A DNA stretch of 7,581 nt from IMG/VR virus record IMGVR_UViG_2541047885_000010; one strand, given 5' to 3'. The DNA is from a virus. Lineage: Duplodnaviria; Heunggongvirae; Uroviricota; Caudoviricetes. The position numbers were made by a program, and so were the translations under genes. Positions 1 to 7,581 of the stretch are shown here, piece by piece; position 1 is the first letter of the stretch, and every line of letters begins with the position of its first letter. Below the pieces are notes generated by a model. That model was not told the origin of the DNA and searched no databases. It saw nothing but the letters and a program-made list of their open reading frames with translations.

Positions 1-35
1 AATATTACTTCACGTTTTATTGTTTATTCCTTGCC

Positions 36-64
36 GCCCGCGTCTCCCAGCGCGGGCTTTTTTT
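36..64 (+). terminator. Rho-independent terminator (7-bp GC stem, 8-nt loop, 7-T run) ending a plus-strand transcript from upstream of the window
   Basis: gcccgcg (36-42) pairs with cgcgggc (51-57), followed directly by ttttttt (58-64). No U-run on the minus strand, so it is plus-strand specific. Confidence 0.6.
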
Positions 65-75
65 GTCCATAAGAA

Positions 76-95
76 AGCCCCTCCGGAGAGGGGCT
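76..95 (-). terminator. Possible weak terminator hairpin for the minus-strand cargo transcript
   Basis: agcccctc (76-83) / gaggggct (88-95), 8-bp stem with cgga loop. On the minus strand it is followed by a T-rich but interrupted tract (tttcttat). Confidence 0.3.
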
Positions 96-440
96 GGAGA
101 GTGGCGCTATGTGCCATTGCATGATGCCGGGTGCCTCCCGGTGAGTTCAGCCCGGTGACACTGAACCCGCGTCATTCTCGTTTTGATAATCAGAGATTAT
201 ACCATCACCAGTCGCCCCTCCGCTCAGGGGGATTCACCATGCCGTTCTCTTTTAACAAATTCGCCGCTAACAGGACAACATTCCGCTTTCTGAGTTGTGA
301 GGAATTTAACACTTCACACCTGTGTGCATTTTCTACAGGCTGATCCCAGCACCACAATACATCGCAGGCAACAGAAGCCAAATGCCCCACCACAGAAAAA
401 ACATGCAATTATGATTATTGTTTACTGCAAAGATGTAGAA

Positions 441-869
441 TCACGGTTTAAAATCCAGCACTCCATTGTGAAATACTTTATATACTTCCGGAGACGGCGG
501 AACTGGTATATCAGCATGCTTCACCGCATTCATCGCTTCACGACATAAATCGGGGTCTCCACCTTCTCTTTTAACCTGTAGCAGAAGACCATTCGGGGCC
601 ATATACATTCTCAGTGAACACTCTTTTCCTGAATACTTACTCGCATCCTTTAACTGTTCTTCTATGGCTTTCCTGACCTGAATGGCATACTGCCTGATTT
701 CTTCACTGGCATCAGGGGTACGTTCCGATGAGCTCAAATTTTGCGACTTTATTAATTTATCTGAGTGATACAGAGAAGCATCATAATTATTTGTCGATAC
801 ATCTTTTGTGCAGCCAGTTGTCAGACTGGCTAATATCAAAACAAGAACTGGTACAGCACGGCAATACAT
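441..869 (-). CDS. Lipoprotein with a C-terminal TolA domain III-like domain (prophage cargo)
   Basis: 142-aa ORF with ATG at 869 and GGAG about 10 nt upstream. N-terminus MYCRAVPVLVLILASLTTGC is a hydrophobic signal ending in a lipobox-like TTGC. The C-terminal ~85 aa (...YSGKECSLRMYMAPNGLLLQVKREGGDPDLCREAMNAVKHADIPVPPSPEVYKVFHNGVLDFKP) aligns closely with my recollection of the E. coli TolA C-terminus (...YAGKTCTLRIKLAPDGMLLDIKPEGGDPALCQAALAAAKLAKIPKPPSQAVYEVFKNAPLDFKP). Confidence 0.8.
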   Translation of the reverse strand: MYCRAVPVLVLILASLTTGCTKDVSTNNYDASLYHSDKLIKSQNLSSSERTPDASEEIRQYAIQVRKAIEEQLKDASKYSGKECSLRMYMAPNGLLLQVKREGGDPDLCREAMNAVKHADIPVPPSPEVYKVFHNGVLDFKP

Positions 870-1147
870 TTATCCATCTCCATATTAACAAGAACAATTA
901 TCTATAAAATATAGTAAATATGCGGGATCCGGGAGGACTTGTAACTATCATCTCCGGATCAGCATGTAGTTTTTATTTTTCCGGATGATATATGCCGCAA
1001 TAATACCTCTGCATACAGATGCCTGCAAATATCTGCGAAGCATCCGGCGAGAATAAACAAGGAAGTCTGAGGCTATCTTATATGATAGCCTGTTGCTCAA
1101 AAGACAATGATTCACTCATCAGAACCAACAACGCATAATGCAGATAA

Positions 1148-1224
1148 TGGACCGCCATCGAGGACTCGAACCCCGCGCAGCCAGCTTCGAAGGCTGGCGC
1201 TCTATCCCGATGAGCTAATGGCGG
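1148..1224 (-). tRNA. tRNA-Arg (anticodon UCG)
   Basis: Reverse complement folds as a cloverleaf: acceptor CCGCCAT/ATGGCGG, D-stem GCTC/GAGC, anticodon stem CCAGC/GCTGG with loop CTTCGAA (anticodon TCG), T-stem CGGGG/CCTCG with loop TTCGAGT, then encoded CCA. 77 nt. Confidence 0.8.
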
Positions 1225-1233
1225 TATGTGATA

Positions 1234-1309
1234 TGGTGGCCCTTGCTGGATTTGAACCAGCTACCTGGCGATTATGAGTCGCTCGCTCTCACCACTGAGC
1301 TAAAGGGCC
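1234..1309 (-). tRNA. tRNA-Ile2 type (anticodon CAU, lysidine-type; formally could be tRNA-Met)
   Basis: Reverse complement GGCCCTTTAGCTCAGTGGTGAGAGCGAGCGACTCATAATCGCCAGGTAGCTGGTTCAAATCCAGCAAGGGCCACCA. Anticodon loop CTCATAA, T-loop TTCAAAT, encoded CCA, 76 nt. Closely resembles E. coli ileX/ileY and the ileZ of Stx phages as I recall them. Confidence 0.85.
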
Positions 1310-1349
1310 GGGCGCAGGATAATAACGGTACGTAACTAATTCTGCAATA

Positions 1350-1688
1350 TCATCCGTTCTGACTGACTAAATCCTGAACTTCCCGAACCGTCTGCTCAAA
1401 ACGTTCAGTCTCCAGCTCAACGCCTGTAGCACGACGGCCCAGTGCCAGTGCAGCTTTAACTGTTGAACCTGACCCCATAAAAAAATCTGCAACCAGGTCA
1501 CCCGGACGACTGCTTGCGCTGATTATCTGCTGCAGCATTTCTGCCGGTTTTTCGCACGGATGTTTCCCGGGATAGAACTGCACCGGTTTATGCGTCCAGA
1601 CATCGGTATACGGCACCTGCGCCGTCACGCCAAAATACCGCCGCAGTCGGCATTCACAACCACCAGCGCATTTAACGTTCAGGCACAA
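1350..1688 (-). pseudogene. 5'-truncated remnant of a beta-class N4/N6 DNA methyltransferase (C-terminal SAM-binding part only)
   Basis: The ORF has no ATG (the ORF track starts it at a TTG). It contains ...HPCEKPAEMLQQIISASSRPGDLVADFFMGSGSTVKAALALGRRATGVELE..., which is the (Q/E)KP plus FxGSGST SAM-binding motif block of PF01555-type methylases. The DPPY catalytic region expected N-terminal to it is absent, and the upstream sequence is an AT-rich porin promoter region. Confidence 0.6.
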
Positions 1689-1712
1689 AAAAACCCGCTC
1701 GACGGCGGGTTT
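1685..1712 (-). terminator. Rho-independent terminator on the minus strand
   Basis: Minus-strand RNA reads aaacccgccgtcgagcggg followed by UUUUUUU (plus-strand A-run 1687-1693). Stem cccgc/gcggg at 1694-1698 / 1705-1709. Confidence 0.55.
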
Positions 1713-2138
1713 AAGCTGTGTGACGAAGTAACCACTCTTAACAGCATAACCAATTTTTTACGTACGTAAACTACTAAATGATATTTGTGAGAATGCCACC
1801 GAGTGTTCAAAACACCACCACAAATGCATAAGAAAACTTCAACAAATAACCAGTTAATAATTTCCGATGTTATTTTTAGTTTGTTTAAATTAAGCTAAAG
1901 AATTATAGAGCACTTATAAATAAGTGCCATTAATATAAATTAGCTAATAGATTTATTTTTGTTCAGACAAGAGCCATGAATAGGATTAGATAGAAAAGGT
2001 TCCGATAAAAATAGAGATCTACTTCACAAATTAAATGAGAAACTAAAACTTACATCTTGAAATAATCACATTGATTAGATGAATATTTATCGCGCAGTGA
2101 CATCATTTTTTAATAATAGTTCAAAAAAAGGGCGTACA

Positions 2139-3221
2139 ATGAAAAAATTAACAGTGGCAATTTCTGCTGTAGCTGCATCAGTACTGATGGCGATGTCTGC
2201 TCAGGCAGCTGAAATTTATAATAAAGACAGTAACAAGCTGGATCTATACGGGAAAGTTAATGCCAAGCACTACTTCTCCTCTAATGATGCAGATGATGGT
2301 GATACTACTTATGCTCGTCTTGGCTTCAAAGGTGAAACCCAAATCAACGATCAACTGACTGGTTTCGGTCAGTGGGAATATGACTTCAAAGGCAACCGTG
2401 CTGAATCTCAAGGTTCTTCCAAAGACAAAACCCGTCTTGCATTTGCAGGCCTGAAATTTGGTGATTACGGCTCAATCGATTACGGTCGTAACTACGGTGT
2501 AGCATACGACATCGGTGCGTGGACTGACGTTCTGCCAGAATTCGGTGGTGATACCTGGACCCAGACAGATGTGTTCATGACTGGCCGCACTACTGGTGTT
2601 GCAACTTATCGTAACAACGACTTCTTTGGTCTGGTCGATGGCCTGAACTTTGCTGCTCAGTATCAGGGTAAAAATGACCGCACTGACGTAACTGAAGCCA
2701 ATGGTGATGGTTTCGGTTTCTCCACTACTTATGAGTATGAAGGATTCGGCGTGGGTGCAACCTATGCTAAATCAGATCGCACTGACGGTCAGGTCGCCTA
2801 TGGTAAGAGCAAATTCAATGCCTCCGGCAAAAATGCGGAAGTATGGGCTGCAGGCCTGAAATATGATGCGAACAATATCTATCTGGCTACCACATATTCT
2901 GAAACTCAGAATATGACCGTTTTTGGTAATAACCATATTGCAAACAAAGCACAAAACTTTGAAGCAGTAGCACAATATCAGTTTGACTTCGGTCTGCGCC
3001 CATCTGTTGCTTACCTTCAGTCAAAAGGTAAAGACCTTGGTGTTCATGGTGACCGAGACTTAGTCAAGTATGTCGATGTCGGTGCTACTTACTACTTTAA
3101 TAAAAACATGTCCACTTTTGTTGATTACAAAATCAACTTAATTGACGATAGTAAGTTTACCAAAACAGCTGGTATTGATACCGACGACATCGTCGCTGTA
3201 GGTCTGGTTTATCAGTTCTAA
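2139..3221 (+). CDS. nmpC: Outer-membrane general porin of the OmpC/OmpF family, NmpC / phage PA-2 Lc type (prophage cargo gene)
   Basis: ATG at 2139 preceded by aaggg. Signal peptide [23 protein letters not shown] then [17 protein letters not shown]..., [18 protein letters not shown], and C-terminal ...VAVGLVYQF with terminal Phe. Opposite orientation to Q, as for nmpC relative to quuD in DLP12. The ORF-track start at 2079 adds 20 non-signal residues and is unlikely. Confidence 0.92.
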
Positions 3222-3231
3222 TCTGACTTAC

Positions 3232-3272
3232 GAAAAAGATATGTTGCGGGAGGCTTTGCCTCCCCAACATAT
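3232..3272 (-). terminator. Strong hairpin terminator on the minus strand; candidate tR' of the late operon
   Basis: 15-bp stem with one bulge (3239-3254 pairs with 3258-3272, loop ttt), followed on the minus strand by c + UUUUU (plus-strand aaaaa 3233-3237). Lies about 140-180 nt downstream of the Q stop, the position tR' occupies in lambda. Confidence 0.5.
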
Positions 3273-3359
3273 AAGTGGAGCCCTCAAGCCACTTCCTTTA
3301 GAAGCACTACCTTGCTTCTTACTATATAAACCTTCTGTTATATATTACCCTTTATTTTG

Positions 3360-3383
3360 GGGGCGTTTCCACGCCCCATTTTT
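3360..3383 (+). terminator. Rho-independent terminator on the plus strand, probably for the porin transcript
   Basis: ggggcg (3360-3365) / cgcccc (3372-3377), loop tttcca, followed by a + ttttt (3379-3383). Confidence 0.5.
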
Positions 3384-3409
3384 AATAACTTTTAGTAAAC
3401 AATTGCATA

Positions 3410-3793
3410 TCAATTAGAATTATTAGCAACGATATCCATATCTAACCGGATATCTAATGCCATTAACATCCCTTCAATTATGCCCTCAGCCTTCTGTAAC
3501 CTTTTCCCGATATAACCATCCGAGCAGCAATGCTTACTTGCCAGTGACATGAATGTCATACCACATACATAATAATCTACTAATAAATCGTGTAAATCGC
3601 TGTTGTTCTTTTTCAGACGGGCCATGCACCCGCAAATGATCATCGCGTCATCGTCACAACATTGCGGGCGAGATTTTACTTTTGAAGGAATTAATCCCTT
3701 AAAACCGGCAGCAATGGACGACCAGGTCACATCCTCATGATTATTTGCCGCCCATGCCCCCCAGCGTTCAAGAACCATCTGAATATCACGCAT
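3410..3793 (-). CDS. Late-gene antiterminator Q, phage 82 / QuuD type
   Basis: 127 aa from the ATG at 3793, with GGAG 7 nt upstream. Begins [26 protein letters not shown]... and has Cys-rich motifs (PQCCDD, CGC, HCC). Matches my recollection of the DLP12 QuuD family. The ORF-track start at 3808 is a TTG and less likely. Confidence 0.85.
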
Positions 3794-3810
3794 CAACTTT
3801 CTCCACAAAA

Positions 3811-4806
3811 TCAGGACAGCACACCAATCGCCAGTGCGCGATCGATAAAACGAAATATCAGCTCCAGTTGGGAACCATACTTCTCTTCAAATGCCACGGT
3901 ATCCACATGCAGTTCGTCATGGTGTTTTCTGCACAAAGGCAACACAAAGAGATCATGCGCTTTTGTCCCCATACCACCCTGGCCGTGACCAATCAGATGA
4001 TGCGGATCATCAGCTGGCTTTCCACAACATGCACACGGCTGCGTCTTAACCCAGCGAGTGTACTTTTCATTAACCCAGCGACGACGTTTGGGGCGTAACA
4101 TAAAAGACTCCGGCGACTCCGGATCCACTTTCAGCGCCAGCACCTTTTTCGCTTTATCCCGGATAATACTGGTGGCAGTAACCGAAGGTACAAGGTCACT
4201 CTCCCGGGTGACAGACGGCAAAACAGGCTTCGGTAATCTCAGGGCCTTACGGGCTGCACTTTCCGGCAAGGCATCCGCCAGGTCATTACGAACCAGCCAC
4301 CAGCACAGTTCCGGCATTGTCACAACGTGACTGTCATCAAAACCGAGATCCCGACGCACGACAGACAACACCCAGCGGGCACAGTTATCCGTTGCCATTG
4401 ATTCCAGCCGTTCCGTGAACTGGTCACGCAGCTGGTTATCACAGTGCCAGCACAGACGGATTGCGCCCGGAGCGTGCCGCATTGTGGTCATGTTCTCGCT
4501 GTGCCAGTCGGAATGAGGCCACTGACAGCCCTTTTCACGAAGTAACCAGCTTTCAAGACATTCCACGCCACCAGCACGACGGATCACTGCCTCATTGCGG
4601 AACACGGCCCGAACGGCAGGATCATCCGCCAGCGGTTGTGATGCCGCCGGAACGGCACCACTGGCGAAAGATGAATAACGTTCCGGCTCAGGCTCCAGCA
4701 GGACACGCCCCTGCATAAACAGGGGCATCAGCTCTGAACCGGGCCTGAACAATACGATCCCCATACGCGGGGCAATTTCAGGGGTCAGTAGTGCTCTCAC
4801 GGTCAC
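3811..4806 (-). CDS. DUF968 (YdfU-like) nin-region protein with a C-terminal HNH-type nuclease / zinc-finger motif
   Basis: 331-aa ORF with GTG start at 4806 (alternative GTG at 4800 with GAGGTG upstream). C-terminus carries [43 protein letters not shown], i.e. CxCC...D-x-HH...LC..HH..H. Stop at 3811 lies 4 nt before the Q ribosome-binding site. Confidence 0.7.
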
Positions 4807-4807
4807 C

Positions 4808-5623
4808 TCAATGAACGGTATCGAGCAGCTTTAACAGCTCAGGGAATCGGGATTCGAAGAAATGCGGCTGCGTCTCGCGCGGATTTGCAGGACTGGTGAT
4901 GTTCTTGCCGAACATGCAGCCTTTCGCTGTCAGCGACCAGAATTTTTTGATGTTGTTAATCGCGGTACGGCTGTATCGTTCGCGTTGTTCAACGATCCCC
5001 AGCTTCGCCATCTGGTGATATGCCTGATTAGCCGTCAGGCGGATACCATACTGCTTCAGCAGTGCACTCAGCGACAGCGTAGGGCGGCTTGAACCATCTG
5101 GCGCATCAGCAGGTGCATCAATGGCATAGATCGGCATAAGTTCAGGAAGACCAGCTACCTTTGATAATTTCTGGTATGCACCAAGTTTCGAGGAGTTTGA
5201 CAGATTTAGAGTCTTTGCTGCTGATTCAAGCAGAATGACCCCGGATTTAATTTTGTCGGATGTGGTTTCTTCTGGTGATGAATTATGAAGCGCATCAAAA
5301 GTACGTATCACTTTTAAGCTGAATGCCGGGCTGATCCACATTGCATATGCATAGACCAGCTCTTTACAGACATACGTCCCACCATTGCGCCCCTGAATGG
5401 TGATGACAGGAATACTACGGGAATCTCCCGTAGTTTCTTCTTCCAATAATTCCACAAGAGCCTTCGTTTCAGGACGACGCATAAACTCGTGAACTTCCAG
5501 CGAACGGGAGGAGCGATTCTCACCAGCGGCAAGAAGAGCAGCTTTCTGAAGGTCGTTAAGACAGTAGTTAGATTCGAAGTACTGGCGCACAGAAACGCCA
5601 TCAATTACAAGCAACTGATTCAT
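4808..5623 (-). CDS. KilA-N domain protein (antirepressor-like / Roi-like DNA-binding protein)
   Basis: ATG at 5623 with GGAG 8 nt upstream (the ORF-track start at 5635 is a GTG). N-terminal MNQLLVIDGVSVRQ...GGTYVCKELVYAYAMWISPAFSLKVIRTFDAL is KilA-N/APSES-like. Stop TGA is 1 nt from the DUF968 start, suggesting co-translation. Confidence 0.7.
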   Translation of the reverse strand: MNQLLVIDGVSVRQYFESNYCLNDLQKAALLAAGENRSSRSLEVHEFMRRPETKALVELLEEETTGDSRSIPVITIQGRNGGTYVCKELVYAYAMWISPAFSLKVIRTFDALHNSSPEETTSDKIKSGVILLESAAKTLNLSNSSKLGAYQKLSKVAGLPELMPIYAIDAPADAPDGSSRPTLSLSALLKQYGIRLTANQAYHQMAKLGIVEQRERYSRTAINNIKKFWSLTAKGCMFGKNITSPANPRETQPHFFESRFPELLKLLDTVH

Positions 5624-5686
5624 TGGTTTCTCCACAAATTTTTATCCACGAGCGGGACTGCACTCCCTTTTCGTTGATGCAGGATG

Positions 5687-5715
5687 AACTTACTGCGATT
5701 TTTAATAGTTATCAA
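5687..5715 (-). promoter_or_regulatory. Candidate sigma-70 promoter for the kilA-N / DUF968 / Q block
   Basis: On the minus strand: -35 TTGATA (5710-5715), 17-nt spacer, -10 TAAGTT (5687-5692). An alternative upstream pair is -35 TTGAGC (5775-5780) and -10 GTATTA (5753-5758). Sequence-only prediction. Confidence 0.3.
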
Positions 5716-5720
5716 GGATA

Positions 5721-5740
5721 CACTGTTCATAAATACAGTA
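5721..5740. promoter_or_regulatory. SOS box (LexA operator), CTGT-N8-ACAG
   Basis: cactgttcataaatacagta: CTGT at 5723-5726, 8-nt AT-rich spacer, ACAG at 5735-5738. 16 of 20 positions match the E. coli consensus TACTGTATATATATACAGTA, with all invariant positions conserved. Sits in the 161-nt gap between rusA and kilA-N. Confidence 0.6.
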
Positions 5741-5785
5741 TCTTTAACGAGGTAATACCCAAATTTAGGGTGTTGCTCAATTCCG

Positions 5786-6181
5786 TTACCGAGTTGCTAA
5801 TTTGCAACTCGCTTTTTCGTACTTACTGATAGTGATCTCGACCTTCCCTTCCGGGATAACCGGTCCCCACTCCACCAGCATTCTTTTCACCTGGCTGTCG
5901 TCTTCCCACACACCCGCGTGGGTCAGGGCGTCAAACAGCGCCTTGTTATAGTTGTCCAGATCGCGGATCCGGTTATCCGGAGGAAACAACACGATCTCCA
6001 CTGAAGCAGGTGCCGACGTTGGTTTCGGCAGACGACGTAACTGCTCAACTATTGCTGCACACGCCGCGCTCTGGAATTTTCGCCCCGCCGCGCTTATCAG
6101 GCTCTTACCAGCAAACGCCCCTTTGTTGGGGTGTCGCCAGTACGTGTTCACGCTGGGCGGAAAAGGCAGTATTAGCTTCAT
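5786..6181 (-). CDS. rusA: RusA-family Holliday junction resolvase
   Basis: N-terminal ...LPFPPSVNTYWRH... and DNRIRDLDNYNKALFDALTHAGVWEDDSQV match the RusA family (LPWPPSNNRYYRH..., [28 protein letters not shown]). ATG overlaps the upstream stop as ATGA. About 10 aa longer at the C-terminus than E. coli RusA. Confidence 0.85.
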   Translation of the reverse strand: MKLILPFPPSVNTYWRHPNKGAFAGKSLISAAGRKFQSAACAAIVEQLRRLPKPTSAPASVEIVLFPPDNRIRDLDNYNKALFDALTHAGVWEDDSQVKRMLVEWGPVIPEGKVEITISKYEKASCKLATR

Positions 6182-6504
6182 ACTTTCAGGCCCCTCTCAT
6201 GTAACCAGTGGGCTGCACGCAGCCTTGCGTTTTCCTCACCGGCAAGCAGTGAGCGGATAATCCCGACCGCCTCGCTGTCGTCGTCCTTCACCGCGGTATG
6301 AAGAGTGATACCCCGGGCCACGCCACGCTTTATCGTGATGACACCTTTTTTCTCCAGTGCGCGAAGATGCTCCACCGCTGCATTCACCGAACGGTATCCC
6401 AGCATGGTTGCCACCTCCTGATTGGTTGGCGGGAAGCCACGTTCTTTCTGATAAGAAATCAGCATATCCAGCACCTGCTGCTGGCATTGAGTTAATGTCG
6501 TCAT
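6178..6504 (-). CDS. LexA-like winged-helix DNA-binding-domain protein lacking the S24 peptidase domain
   Basis: 108 aa. MTTLTQCQQQVLDMLISYQKERGFPPTNQEVATMLGYRSVNAAVEHLRALEKKGVITIKRGVARGITL aligns with LexA residues 1-70 ([68 protein letters not shown]), including the recognition helix S-x-NAA-x-EHL. The C-terminal ~35 aa are unrelated to the LexA protease domain. ATGA overlaps at both ends. Confidence 0.75.
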   Translation of the reverse strand: MTTLTQCQQQVLDMLISYQKERGFPPTNQEVATMLGYRSVNAAVEHLRALEKKGVITIKRGVARGITLHTAVKDDDSEAVGIIRSLLAGEENARLRAAHWLHERGLKV

Positions 6505-7153
6505 GCCGCCATCTCCCTGACCAGTTTTTCTGCCTGCTGGCGAACCTGCGCCAGAAAGGCCTCACCACATGCCTCAAGTTCATCGCGCCCGATGTAGCTG
6601 ATTGCCGGTCCCTTCCAGGTCTTGTCGAAAACAGCAATAGCACCAGCGAAGAAAGCGCCTGTCGGCACCTGCTTCTCATCCTTCGGGATAAACCAGGCAG
6701 GCAGTTCAAAACCAATACGCCCGCGAATAAAAGCAATATGATCTGCATCTTCCGGCCACCACACTTGCTGGTGGCAGCTTTGATCAGGAAAACATAGCGC
6801 CCGCCTTTATCACGCATGGCACTGGCATGCTTCATGATGTAACGCATGCCGGTGATGTATTGTCCCTCATGCTGACTGGCGCGGCTGTACGGGGGATTAC
6901 CAAAGGCAGCACCTTTAAGCTCCGCAAGACGTTCTGACCAGTCATGTGCCAGCGCGTTGTCTTCCGCCGTGTAATACGCGGCACATTTGGCGTTATCACC
7001 GTCAGTAAACAGATCCAGAACAAACGGGCCAAACAGGGTGTTAATTCCCCAGAAAATGTTGTCCGGCGTGCGCCACTGATCGCCCACTTCCTTCAGTTCA
7101 TGGGCTGGTTTGTTCCGTAGTTCCACCAGCGCCTGGCAATATTTATTACTCAT
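6501..7153 (-). pseudogene. Phage Dam-family DNA N6-adenine methyltransferase, interrupted by a frameshift at about 6760-6763
   Basis: N-terminal frame from ATG 7153 gives MSNKYCQALVELRNKPAHELKEVGDQWRTPDNIFWGINTLFGPFVLDLFTDGDNAKCAAYYTAEDNALAHDWSERLAELKGAAFGNPPYS...GGRYVFLIKAATSK (NPPY catalytic motif), then becomes low-complexity nonsense. A second frame resumes with WWPEDADHIAFIRGRIGFELPAWFIP... and ends at 6501 in an ATGA overlap with the next gene. Joining the two frames at K|WW reproduces the family motif as I recall it (...ARTDTRWWHD...RFIRGRLKF). Confidence 0.75.
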
Positions 7154-7503
7154 TAAGCCCCCACGTAATTCCCTGAGAGGTACCACTCTTCACCTGATGC
7201 AGCCCGCTTACTGCTTTTCCGTAAACACCGTTCACGACGCGCCAGAAAATTGTTTCGTTCTGGCTGGGAGTGGCTTTCACGGAATGCCGCCATCCACACC
7301 GTTGCAGCACGACGGTATAAGCCCCTGGACTCCAGTTCTTCCGCCTGGCGGGTCAGGCACAAAATCACCCGGGGATCGTTAGTGCCGACATAGAAATTGC
7401 GCACAGGTATGGTTTCAAGAACAGGTTGCAGTTTCTCCTCCTGCGATATCTCAGCCTGGTGTGGGAAATGTCTGCGTGTTTTCCCTTCACAACAGTGAGC
7501 CAC
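7153..7503 (-). CDS. PerC-family (Pch-like) transcriptional regulator, 5' end uncertain
   Basis: Contains ...LTRQAEELESRGLYRRAATVWMAAFRESHSQPERNNFLARRERCL..., resembling the PerC/Pch signature (LE-x-GLWRRAA-x-W ... RR-x-CL). Stop TAA overlaps the Dam ATG as TAATG. The only in-window start is a GTG at 7503 with no clear ribosome-binding site, and the frame stays open to position 7581. Confidence 0.45.
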   Translation of the reverse strand: MAHCCEGKTRRHFPHQAEISQEEKLQPVLETIPVRNFYVGTNDPRVILCLTRQAEELESRGLYRRAATVWMAAFRESHSQPERNNFLARRERCLRKSSKRAASGEEWYLSGNYVGA

Positions 7504-7581
7504 ACGGCCACTCTGACGTAACTTGCTTGCTGACTGCAGAACGCGCTGCCGTGAGTAACCTGCAAAAGCATCCGCAATGTC

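What the first reader, a model, noticed from the sequence alone, without database searches (positions are those of the whole stretch)
6501..7153. Dam-family methyltransferase split by a frameshift in a CA/TG repeat
Both halves of the gene are recognisable and are joined to their neighbours by conserved start/stop overlaps, but the frame changes at plus-strand 6760-6763 (CCACCACAC; coding strand aag-TG-tggtgg). Removing one TG dinucleotide restores ...AATSK-WWPEDADH... in a single frame. This could be a sequencing or assembly error, a recent inactivating slippage mutation, or a slippage-prone switch controlling methyltransferase expression. The site also sits inside a small inverted repeat (ccacca...tggtgg).
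Basis: seen in the sequence. Interest (0 to 1): 0.5.

Follow-up and report, generated by a model that had tools for sequence, protein, structure and literature searches.

The report
One-base deletion breaks prophage Dam methylase
A DNA-methylase gene carried by a dormant virus in the E. coli chromosome has been knocked out by the loss of a single G; this is ordinary gene decay, it is seen in hundreds of other assemblies, and it is not a repeat-driven on/off switch.

Summary
The split gene is real, but the proposed lesion is wrong. Window 7153-6501 (minus strand) is a phage N-6-adenine methyltransferase (PF05869/TIGR01712) of 653 nt. Intact orthologues are 654 nt and 217 aa. Alignment shows the window lacks one G, nt 388, the first base of the Glu130 codon: AGC GAA GTG TGG TGG becomes AGC-AAGTGTGGTGG. 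The gap lies between window 6767 and 6766.

It is only (TG)x2, and no tandem repeat or slippery site is present.

The deleted allele is not a one-off error. The orphaned 87-aa C-terminal ORF is recorded on 325 contigs. In 10 of the 11 other loci I read that carry the fragment or its DNA, the junction is identical, always on CPS-53-like prophages.

Adding the G back recreates, residue for residue, a very common intact protein, so the inactivation is recent. The gene is the full-length counterpart of K-12 yfdM. It is also lost by other routes in relatives. Verdict: an ordinary, already-annotated prophage pseudogene allele of low interest.

The parts
6501..7153 (-). Frameshifted phage N-6-adenine methyltransferase gene (653 nt; intact orthologues 654 nt / 217 aa). 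It is the orthologue of K-12 yfdM.
   Evidence: Pfam PF05869 hits on both halves. The +G repair gives a full-length PF05869 match (3-167/169, 156 bits) and a TIGR01712 match (1-165/165, 255.6 bits). K-12 YfdM is 89/89 identical to the N-terminus.
6767..7153 (-). Codons 1-129 in the original frame (MSNKYC...LIKAATS). They hold the putative AdoMet-binding region and the NPPY catalytic motif.
6887..6898 (-). AAT CCC CCG TAC = NPPY, residues 86-89 (motif IV of N6-adenine methyltransferases). It lies upstream of the lesion and is retained.
   Evidence: Read from the sequence and the translation.
6766..6767 (-). Site of the lesion. One G (gene nt 388, first base of the Glu130 codon GAA) is missing between these two bases: intact AGC GAA GTG TGG TGG, window AGC AAG TGT GGT GG.
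   Evidence: Alignment A1, indel listing, junction counts.
6501..6764 (-). Orphaned C-terminal 87 codons plus stop (V/MWWPEDADH...REMAA*) in the original downstream frame. It begins at the native Val131 GTG. No AGGAG-like Shine-Dalgarno motif is visible in the ~20 nt upstream.
   Evidence: The same fragment is called as a separate gene on 325 contigs and appears in 649 index blocks.
6236..6766 (-). Out-of-frame read-through after the deletion: 176 junk codons (KCGGRKMQ...LTACR), giving a predicted 305-aa product. It runs across the LexA-like start codon and stops at 6238-6236.
   Evidence: ORF 6236..7186 and the frame analysis. This degree of openness occurs in about 3% of synonymous shuffles.
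6755..6775 (.). 7-bp inverted repeat GCCACCA/TGGTGGC with the lesion in its 7-nt loop. It is present unchanged in intact genes and is unremarkable.
   Evidence: I3, one of 12 in the gene.
7153..7581 (-). Upstream neighbour: PerC-family yfdN gene, cut by the window end (first 22 codons missing). Its TAA overlaps the Dam ATG (TAATG).
   Evidence: annotation of relatives.
6178..6504 (-). Downstream neighbour: LexA DNA-binding-domain protein (108 aa). Its ATG overlaps the Dam TGA (ATGA).

Best explanation
This is a genuine pseudogene allele of the accessory phage Dam-type N6-adenine methyltransferase in the early-right (nin-like) region of a lambdoid CPS-53/KpLE1-family prophage of E. coli. It arose by spontaneous loss of a single non-repeated G (nt 388, Glu130 codon).

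Shown:
- the deletion and its exact position;
- the allele recurs in many independent assemblies;
- the rest of the coding sequence is unchanged relative to a very common intact protein;
- no repeat tract or recoding signal is present.

Inferred:
- Translation yields a 305-aa product, made of 129 native residues (putative AdoMet-binding region plus NPPY) and 176 junk residues. It lacks profile positions ~100-169 and is therefore catalytically dead.
- The 87-aa C-terminal ORF has no visible ribosome-binding site and is probably not made.
- Ribosomes in the wrong frame run over the LexA-like start and abolish the ATGA translational coupling.
- The deletion arose once in a CPS-53-type prophage. 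It reached this window's hybrid gene by homologous recombination between lambdoid prophages: the 5' half resembles GmF052 and the 3' half resembles the CPS-53-type carriers.
- The loss is neutral decay of a dispensable gene, because the host has its own Dam and some relatives lack the gene altogether.
For: - Lesion. A one-G gap versus three intact orthologues, with otherwise identical flanks, and shared with the YJ6 pseudogene. The gene is 653 nt versus 654 nt.
- Repair. Adding the G gives a 217-aa protein identical to one seen on 1,000 or more contigs. It matches PF05869 and TIGR01712 over their full length.
- Junction counts in 5,426 complete E. coli genomes: deleted 2 genomes, both PGAP-annotated "frameshifted"; intact 1,608 genomes; TG-less 0.
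- Spread. The 87-aa orphan ORF is on 325 contigs from NCBI, ENA and Logan. L007-L014 and L019 carry the identical junction, as does the source scaffold L016.
- Backbone. L007-L014 and L016 have the yfdP/yfdQ left arm.
- Hybrid structure. The 5' half has 1 mismatch to GmF052 and 9 to the CPS-53-type carriers. The 3' half has 0 mismatches to the carriers and 9 to GmF052.
- Dispensability. A different 1-nt deletion (C351) in L015, an IS insertion in L009, truncation after codon 89 in K-12 yfdM, and complete absence in L017, L018 and L026.
- No repeat or recoding signal.
Against: - No reads are available for the source assembly. The window is a 7.6-kb draft contig bounded by N runs. Its patchwork of SNPs could in principle reflect collapse of two co-resident prophages rather than true recombination.
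- Loss of activity is inferred from the truncation, not measured.
- Single origin is the parsimonious reading but is not proven. The 3' half is also identical to some intact alleles (L001, L022, L023), so a second independent loss of the same G cannot be excluded.
- The K-12 89-residue remnant YfdM has been reported to have a phenotype (bioRxiv 10.1101/413146). "Dead" may therefore be too strong for the N-terminal fragment.
Confidence: 0.88

Rival explanations
1. Sequencing or assembly artefact in this particular draft contig. This could be a miscalled base, or a chimeric consensus of two co-resident prophages, one carrying the delta-G allele and one intact.
For: The window equals a 7,581-bp contig bounded by 4,368 N and 10 N in scaffold KE701653.1. 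SNPs alternate between GmF052-type and CPS-53-type patches. The closest whole-window relatives (99.6%) are one base longer and intact.
Against: The same junction in identical 3'-half sequence is in two finished genomes and many independent assemblies, so the allele itself is real. The scaffold's left arm (yfdQ, yfdP, repressor) is the CPS-53-type backbone on which the allele normally sits. Lambdoid prophages are known to be mosaic (established knowledge).
Confidence: 0.06
2. Phase-variable (contingency) switch. Slippage in a TG/CA repeat would toggle methyltransferase expression ON and OFF, as in phasevarions.
For: Only the superficial GTGTGGTGG string next to the frame change.
Against: No tandem repeat at score 30 or above, and no dinucleotide run of 3 or more units or homopolymer at the site. 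The TG count is invariant. The only polymorphism is a non-repeated G. A TG-less junction occurs in 0 of 5,426 genomes. The OFF state is rare (2 genomes versus 1,608) and linked to one prophage lineage, which points to inheritance rather than switching.
Confidence: 0.01
3. Programmed recoding, or a functional split enzyme. Either a -1 ribosomal frameshift restores the full-length protein, or the two fragments are made separately and assemble.
For: The two frames overlap for 15 codons (from the frame-B stop at 6809-6807 to the GTG at 6764). A 7-bp hairpin spans the site.
Against: No X XXY YYZ heptamer lies anywhere in the gene. Orthologues are overwhelmingly single-frame. The hairpin encloses the site rather than following it, and it is present in intact genes too. 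No AGGAG-like Shine-Dalgarno motif is visible before the GTG of the C-terminal ORF (sequence). PGAP calls the same allele a pseudogene.
Confidence: 0.01
4. Retained truncated product with a residual or new function. The N-terminal fragment (putative AdoMet-binding region plus NPPY), like K-12 YfdM, is kept because it does something, such as influencing other phages.
For: K-12 YfdM is exactly the first 89 residues of this protein. It was reported to be needed for propagation of the T1-like phage SW1 (bioRxiv 10.1101/413146). The gene has been truncated independently after NPPY at least three times (K-12, L015, this allele).
Against: There is no sign of selection. The allele is young, with zero further amino-acid changes. 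Some relatives lack the gene entirely. Here the fragment is fused to 176 junk residues. The YfdM report concerns a different truncation and gives no biochemical mechanism.
Confidence: 0.04

Closest known systems
Intact phage N-6-adenine methyltransferase of lambdoid and Stx prophages (TIGR01712 / PF05869), e.g. WP_000066917.1 in E. coli EC96, BAT32394.1 in Stx2a_1447, and the identical protein in inducible phage PhiR40_1
   Same: Same gene, same position between the PerC/yfdN gene and the LexA-like gene, with the same TAATG and ATGA overlaps. It is 100% identical in amino acids once one G is restored.
   Different: The window copy lacks G388 and is split into 129 native codons plus junk and an orphan 87-codon ORF.
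Frameshifted pseudogenes HXS64_RS17475 (E. coli YJ6) and FNW97_RS02675 (E. coli ETEC6)
   Same: Identical deletion junction and identical 3' half. RefSeq already annotates both as "phage N-6-adenine-methyltransferase, frameshifted".
   Different: Their 5' half differs at 9 positions. Their prophage has a DLP12-like lysis cassette directly after the porin, whereas the window has tRNAs, a partial methylase and a TolA-like gene there.
YfdM (b2356) of cryptic prophage CPS-53/KpLE1 in E. coli K-12
   Same: Same gene in the same prophage family, next to yfdN. 89 of 89 residues are identical, ending at NPPY.
   Different: K-12 lost everything after codon 89 by a large deletion that joined it to tail-fibre remnants. 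Here the whole gene is present and only one base is missing.
Phase-variable DNA methyltransferases (phasevarions: Mod and Type I hsdS/hsdM with simple-sequence repeats)
   Same: A methyltransferase ORF whose reading frame differs between strains.
   Different: No simple-sequence repeat, no repeat-number variation, and the OFF state is a rare inherited allele.

Membership tests
Phage N-6-adenine methyltransferase (Pfam PF05869 Dam; NCBIfam TIGR01712 phage_N6A_met) | Profile match above the curated cut-off | tested here: met
   N-terminal half 103.1 bits and C-terminal half 34.1 bits against a cut-off of 28.1. Repaired protein: 156 bits, positions 3-167/169, and TIGR01712 255.6 bits against 97.05, positions 1-165/165.
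Phage N-6-adenine methyltransferase (Pfam PF05869 Dam; NCBIfam TIGR01712 phage_N6A_met) | Catalytic motif IV (D/N)PP(Y/F/W) | tested here: met
   NPPY at residues 86-89, window 6898-6887.
Phage N-6-adenine methyltransferase (Pfam PF05869 Dam; NCBIfam TIGR01712 phage_N6A_met) | Single uninterrupted ORF covering the whole domain (a functional member) | tested here: not met
   One-base deletion after codon 129. The in-frame product covers only profile positions 3-100 of 169. It is therefore a pseudogene member, not a functional one.
Phage N-6-adenine methyltransferase (Pfam PF05869 Dam; NCBIfam TIGR01712 phage_N6A_met) | m6A methylation of DNA (GATC for characterised relatives) | not testable with these tools
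   Needs a methylome or restriction assay. GATC specificity is cited for the Stx-phage enzyme M.EcoVT2Dam in PMC6602927, but I did not verify that enzyme's sequence identity to this gene.
Phase-variable methyltransferase / contingency locus | Simple-sequence repeat tract in the ORF or promoter | tested here: not met
   TRF finds nothing at score 30 or above in 6400-7250. No dinucleotide repeat of 3 or more units. The only homopolymers of 5 or more are CCCCC at 6895 and AAAAA at 6529, both far from the lesion.
Phase-variable methyltransferase / contingency locus | Repeat-number variation between strains at the frame-change site | tested here: not met
   Only +G (1,608 genomes) or -G (2 genomes) is seen. 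The TG-less form is in 0 genomes. The variable base is not part of a repeat.
Programmed -1 ribosomal frameshift gene | Slippery heptamer X XXY YYZ in the frame-overlap zone | tested here: not met
   None in the gene. The only one in the scanned stretch (CCCGGGG at 6317) lies in the downstream gene.
Programmed -1 ribosomal frameshift gene | Two-frame arrangement conserved among orthologues | tested here: not met
   Orthologues are single-frame in 1,895 places in 1,608 genomes and in phage genomes.
yfdM orthologue of CPS-53/KpLE1-type prophages | Sequence identity to K-12 YfdM, and position immediately downstream of yfdN | tested here: met
   89/89 identical residues. The yfdN-type PerC gene lies directly upstream. 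yfdP and yfdQ are on the same scaffold, across an N gap.

The most novel reading that the evidence does not exclude
The N-terminal fragment of this methylase may be repeatedly retained in CPS-53-type prophages because it keeps or gains a function independent of methylation. Candidate functions are helping or hindering superinfecting phages, as was reported for K-12 YfdM. The fragment holds the putative AdoMet-binding region and NPPY, and it has been truncated independently at codons 89, ~118 and 129 in different strains. Alternatively, the wrong-frame read-through across the LexA-like start could re-tune expression of the downstream LexA-like/RusA genes. Under either reading the frameshift allele would be adaptive rather than decay.
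Probability: 0.04. Interest if true: 0.4.

Novelty: already known. Interest (0 to 1): 0.08.

Why it matters
It matters little biologically. It is a clean example of early prophage decay: one accessory gene has been knocked out while all its neighbours remain intact. It also shows an inactivating allele apparently being carried into another lambdoid prophage background.

It matters more as a methodological lesson. A frame change can be "repaired" in several arithmetically valid ways from sequence alone. Only comparison with orthologues shows which base is actually missing, and here that removes the basis for the phase-variation hypothesis. For annotation, the two fragments should be merged into one pseudogene. 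The 87-aa ORF is currently deposited as a separate "phage N-6-adenine-methyltransferase" or "hypothetical protein" and is recorded on 325 contigs.

Tried and rejected
- Exact look-up of the predicted 305-aa (ATG) and 316-aa (GTG) read-through products found nothing on record. Gene callers evidently do not call that ORF.
- I looked up the LexA-like protein hoping to find independent copies of the window's hybrid arrangement. The protein is too common (21,576 index blocks) to discriminate, but the search showed relatives that lack the Dam gene.
- A PDB sequence search with the repaired protein gave only chance hits (E 0.75 or higher).
- The promoter and terminator scan of 6100-7581 found nothing relevant.
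- I considered a quasi-palindrome (template-switch) origin of the deletion. Loss of the G does not extend the 7-bp stem (by inspection), so I rejected it.
- I considered that the long off-frame ORF might hide an overlapping gene. The Dam part is open in 84% of synonymous shuffles and the whole stretch in about 3%, which is not compelling.
- Two literature searches found no paper on this allele.

Full report
**What is in the window**

Read on the minus strand, the right-hand part of the window is the early-right/nin-like region of a lambdoid prophage. In order it holds:
- a PerC-family yfdN gene (7581-7153, cut by the window end);
- the Dam-type methyltransferase (7153-6501);
- a LexA DNA-binding-domain protein (6504-6178);
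- RusA (6181-5786);
- a KilA-N protein (5635-4808);
- a DUF968 protein (4806-3811);
- the antiterminator QuuD (3808-3410);
- a plus-strand OmpC-like porin (to 3221);
- a truncated N6/N4 methylase (1688-1350);
- two tRNAs (1309-1148);
- a TolA-like ORF (869-441).

The window is 100% identical to positions 7184-14764 of locus L016, which is scaffold KE701653.1 of draft assembly GCA_000460275.1. There it forms a contig bounded by runs of 4,368 and 10 Ns. On the far side of the large gap lie yfdQ, yfdP and a repressor, which make up the left arm of CPS-53/KpLE1-type prophages.

**Checking the observation**

The gene really is split. Codons 1-129 match PF05869 (Dam) profile positions 3-98 of 169 at 103 bits. 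The ORF 6764-6504 in another frame matches positions 102-167 at 34 bits. Both exceed the 28.1-bit cut-off.

Intact orthologues are 654 nt (217 aa) and the window gene is 653 nt. Alignment of the window with intact genes from E. coli EC96 and phage Stx2a_1447 shows one gap. Intact genes read AGC GAA GTG TGG TGG (Ser-Glu-Val-Trp-Trp). The window reads AGC-AAGTGTGGTGG. The missing base is G388, the first base of the Glu130 codon, and it falls between window positions 6767 and 6766.

The GTGTGGTGG string that looked like a TG repeat is native coding sequence. Tandem Repeats Finder reports nothing. A regex scan finds no dinucleotide run of 3 or more units, no homopolymer near the site and no slippery heptamer in the gene. 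The inverted repeat GCCACCA/TGGTGGC (6755-6761 and 6769-6775) exists and has the lesion in its loop. It is one of 12 comparable short inverted repeats in the 656-nt gene, and it is unchanged in intact genes.

**Which repair is right**

I searched 40-41-nt junction probes, in which every 28-nt seed must span the junction, against 5,426 complete E. coli genomes.

| Junction | Result |
|---|---|
| Intact (+G) | 1,895 places in 1,608 genomes |
| Window (-G) | 2 genomes, YJ6 and ETEC6 |

Adding the G gives a 217-aa protein identical to EC96 WP_000066917.1. That exact protein is recorded on at least 1,000 contigs. It is also encoded by the inducible phage PhiR40_1. It covers PF05869 positions 3-167/169 (156 bits) and TIGR01712 "phage_N6A_met" positions 1-165/165 (255.6 bits against a cut-off of 97).

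**Error or real allele**

The allele is real in the population.
- RefSeq annotates the same lesion in YJ6 and ETEC6 as "phage N-6-adenine-methyltransferase, frameshifted".
- The orphan 87-aa C-terminal ORF, called as a separate gene, is on record on 325 contigs from NCBI, ENA and Logan and in 649 index blocks.
- Of the ten places shown for that ORF, one is the source scaffold itself (L016). Eight of the other nine (L007-L014) carry exactly the window's junction, and so does L019.
- The exception, L015, has an independent 1-nt deletion (C351) that leaves the same downstream ORF.

I cannot inspect reads for the source assembly, so an error in this particular contig is not formally excluded. It would have to reproduce by chance an allele that exists elsewhere in identical sequence context.

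**History of the allele**

L007-L014 and L016 sit on CPS-53-type prophages with the yfdP/yfdQ left arm.

The window's own gene is a hybrid. Its 5' half (7153-6768) differs by 1 base from GmF052 and by 9 from the CPS-53-type carriers. GmF052 is one of the three closest whole-window relatives (99.6%), and its gene is intact. The 3' half (6767-6501, including the deletion) is identical to the carriers and differs from GmF052 at 9 positions.

The simplest reading is one ancestral deletion in a CPS-53-type prophage, later carried into this mosaic by homologous exchange between lambdoid prophages. Two alternatives remain open:
- The same G may have been lost a second time, because intact alleles with the same 3' half exist (L001, L022, L023).
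- The draft contig may be a collapsed consensus of two prophages.

No further amino-acid change has accumulated on either side of the lesion, so the inactivation is recent.

**Consequences (inferred)**

The in-frame product keeps the N-terminal 129 residues, including NPPY (6898-6887). It loses profile positions ~100-169 and acquires 176 out-of-frame residues before stopping at 6238-6236. I infer loss of methyltransferase activity.

The C-terminal ORF starts at the native Val131 GTG, and no AGGAG-like ribosome-binding site is visible upstream of it. Wrong-frame ribosomes now pass over the ATGA junction with the LexA-like gene, so translational coupling is lost. That gene has its own GGGAG about 8 nt upstream of its ATG, so the effect may be small.

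The long open off-frame stretch is not remarkable. The Dam part is open in 84% of synonymous shuffles and the whole stretch in about 3%.

**The gene is dispensable**

The gene is lost in several ways in relatives:
- a different 1-nt deletion in L015;
- an IS insertion on top of delta-G388 in L009;
- truncation after codon 89 in K-12, where the remnant is annotated yfdM and is 89/89 identical to this protein;
- complete absence, with the PerC gene abutting the LexA-like gene, in L017, L018 and L026.

This pattern fits neutral decay of an accessory gene in lysogens whose host already has Dam. That last point is established knowledge about E. coli, not tested here.

One caveat applies. A preprint reports that K-12 YfdM is required for propagation of a T1-like phage (10.1101/413146). 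A residual role for N-terminal fragments therefore cannot be dismissed outright, and I give it about 4%.

**Comparison with known systems**

This is a pseudogene member of the phage N-6-adenine methyltransferase family, which is present in 587 phage records. It fails every tested defining feature of a phase-variable methyltransferase: no repeat tract and no repeat-number variation. It also fails those of a programmed frameshift gene: no slippery site, and orthologues are single-frame.

The same allele is already annotated as frameshifted in RefSeq. I rate the novelty "already known" and the interest 0.08.

Noticed in passing
window 1-7581 (= L016 7184-14764): The window is exactly one contig of a draft scaffold (GCA_000460275.1, KE701653.1), bounded by runs of 4,368 and 10 Ns. 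Within 7581-6170, SNPs alternate in patches of about 50-300 bp between a GmF052-like and a CPS-53-like haplotype. This is either real prophage mosaicism or a collapsed two-copy consensus.
   Followed up: partly
window 1350-1688 (-): There is a second broken methyltransferase in the same prophage: a C-terminal fragment of an N6/N4 DNA methylase (PF01555). RefSeq annotates it in the near-identical GmF052 locus as "incomplete; missing N-terminus". In relatives such as L015 and L022 a 350-aa intact version occupies this position downstream of the antiterminator gene.
   Followed up: partly
window 65-271 (-): Full-length match to the Rfam sRNA family STnc100 (RF02076, 158 bits against a gathering score of 47) at the far left of the window, downstream of the TolA-like ORF.
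   Followed up: no
window 1148-1309 (-): Two phage-borne tRNAs: tRNA-Arg (anticodon TCG) and a CAT-anticodon tRNA. ARAGORN calls the second one Met, whereas RefSeq annotates it as tRNA-Ile in GmF052 (probably lysidine-modified). This is the usual Stx-phage-type tRNA cluster downstream of Q.
   Followed up: partly
window 2079-3221 (+) and 441-869 (-): Cargo genes in the late-promoter region: an OmpC/NmpC-like porin on the opposite strand to the phage genes, and a 142-aa TolA-like ORF. In ETEC6 and YJ6 the porin is followed directly by the essD lysis cassette, so the tRNA/methylase/TolA block is a module swap.
   Followed up: no
L017, L018, L026 (positions 3507-4327 in each): In some related prophages the Dam gene is absent altogether and the PerC gene directly abuts the LexA-like gene. 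The methylase therefore behaves as an optional cassette inserted between two overlapping-stop/start junctions.
   Followed up: partly
window 6236-6766 (-): After the deletion the wrong frame stays open for 176 codons, across the rest of the Dam gene and 88 codons of the LexA-like gene. In synonymous-codon shuffles this happens in about 3% of cases. It is mildly unusual, but I take it to be chance.
   Followed up: yes
L027 6113-6388 (K-12 yfdM) versus window 6887-7153: K-12 YfdM (91 aa) is exactly the first 89 residues of this methylase, ending at NPPY. A preprint attributes a phage-propagation phenotype to it and calls it a "putative Dam methylase", although it lacks more than half of the domain.
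   Followed up: partly
L010, L011, L014 (whole loci): Three assemblies from one series (GCA_0205565xx) show many split genes across the prophage (repressor, LexA-like, KilA-N, porin). This looks like indel-rich long-read assemblies rather than biology, so they should be discounted as independent evidence for any frameshift.
   Followed up: no
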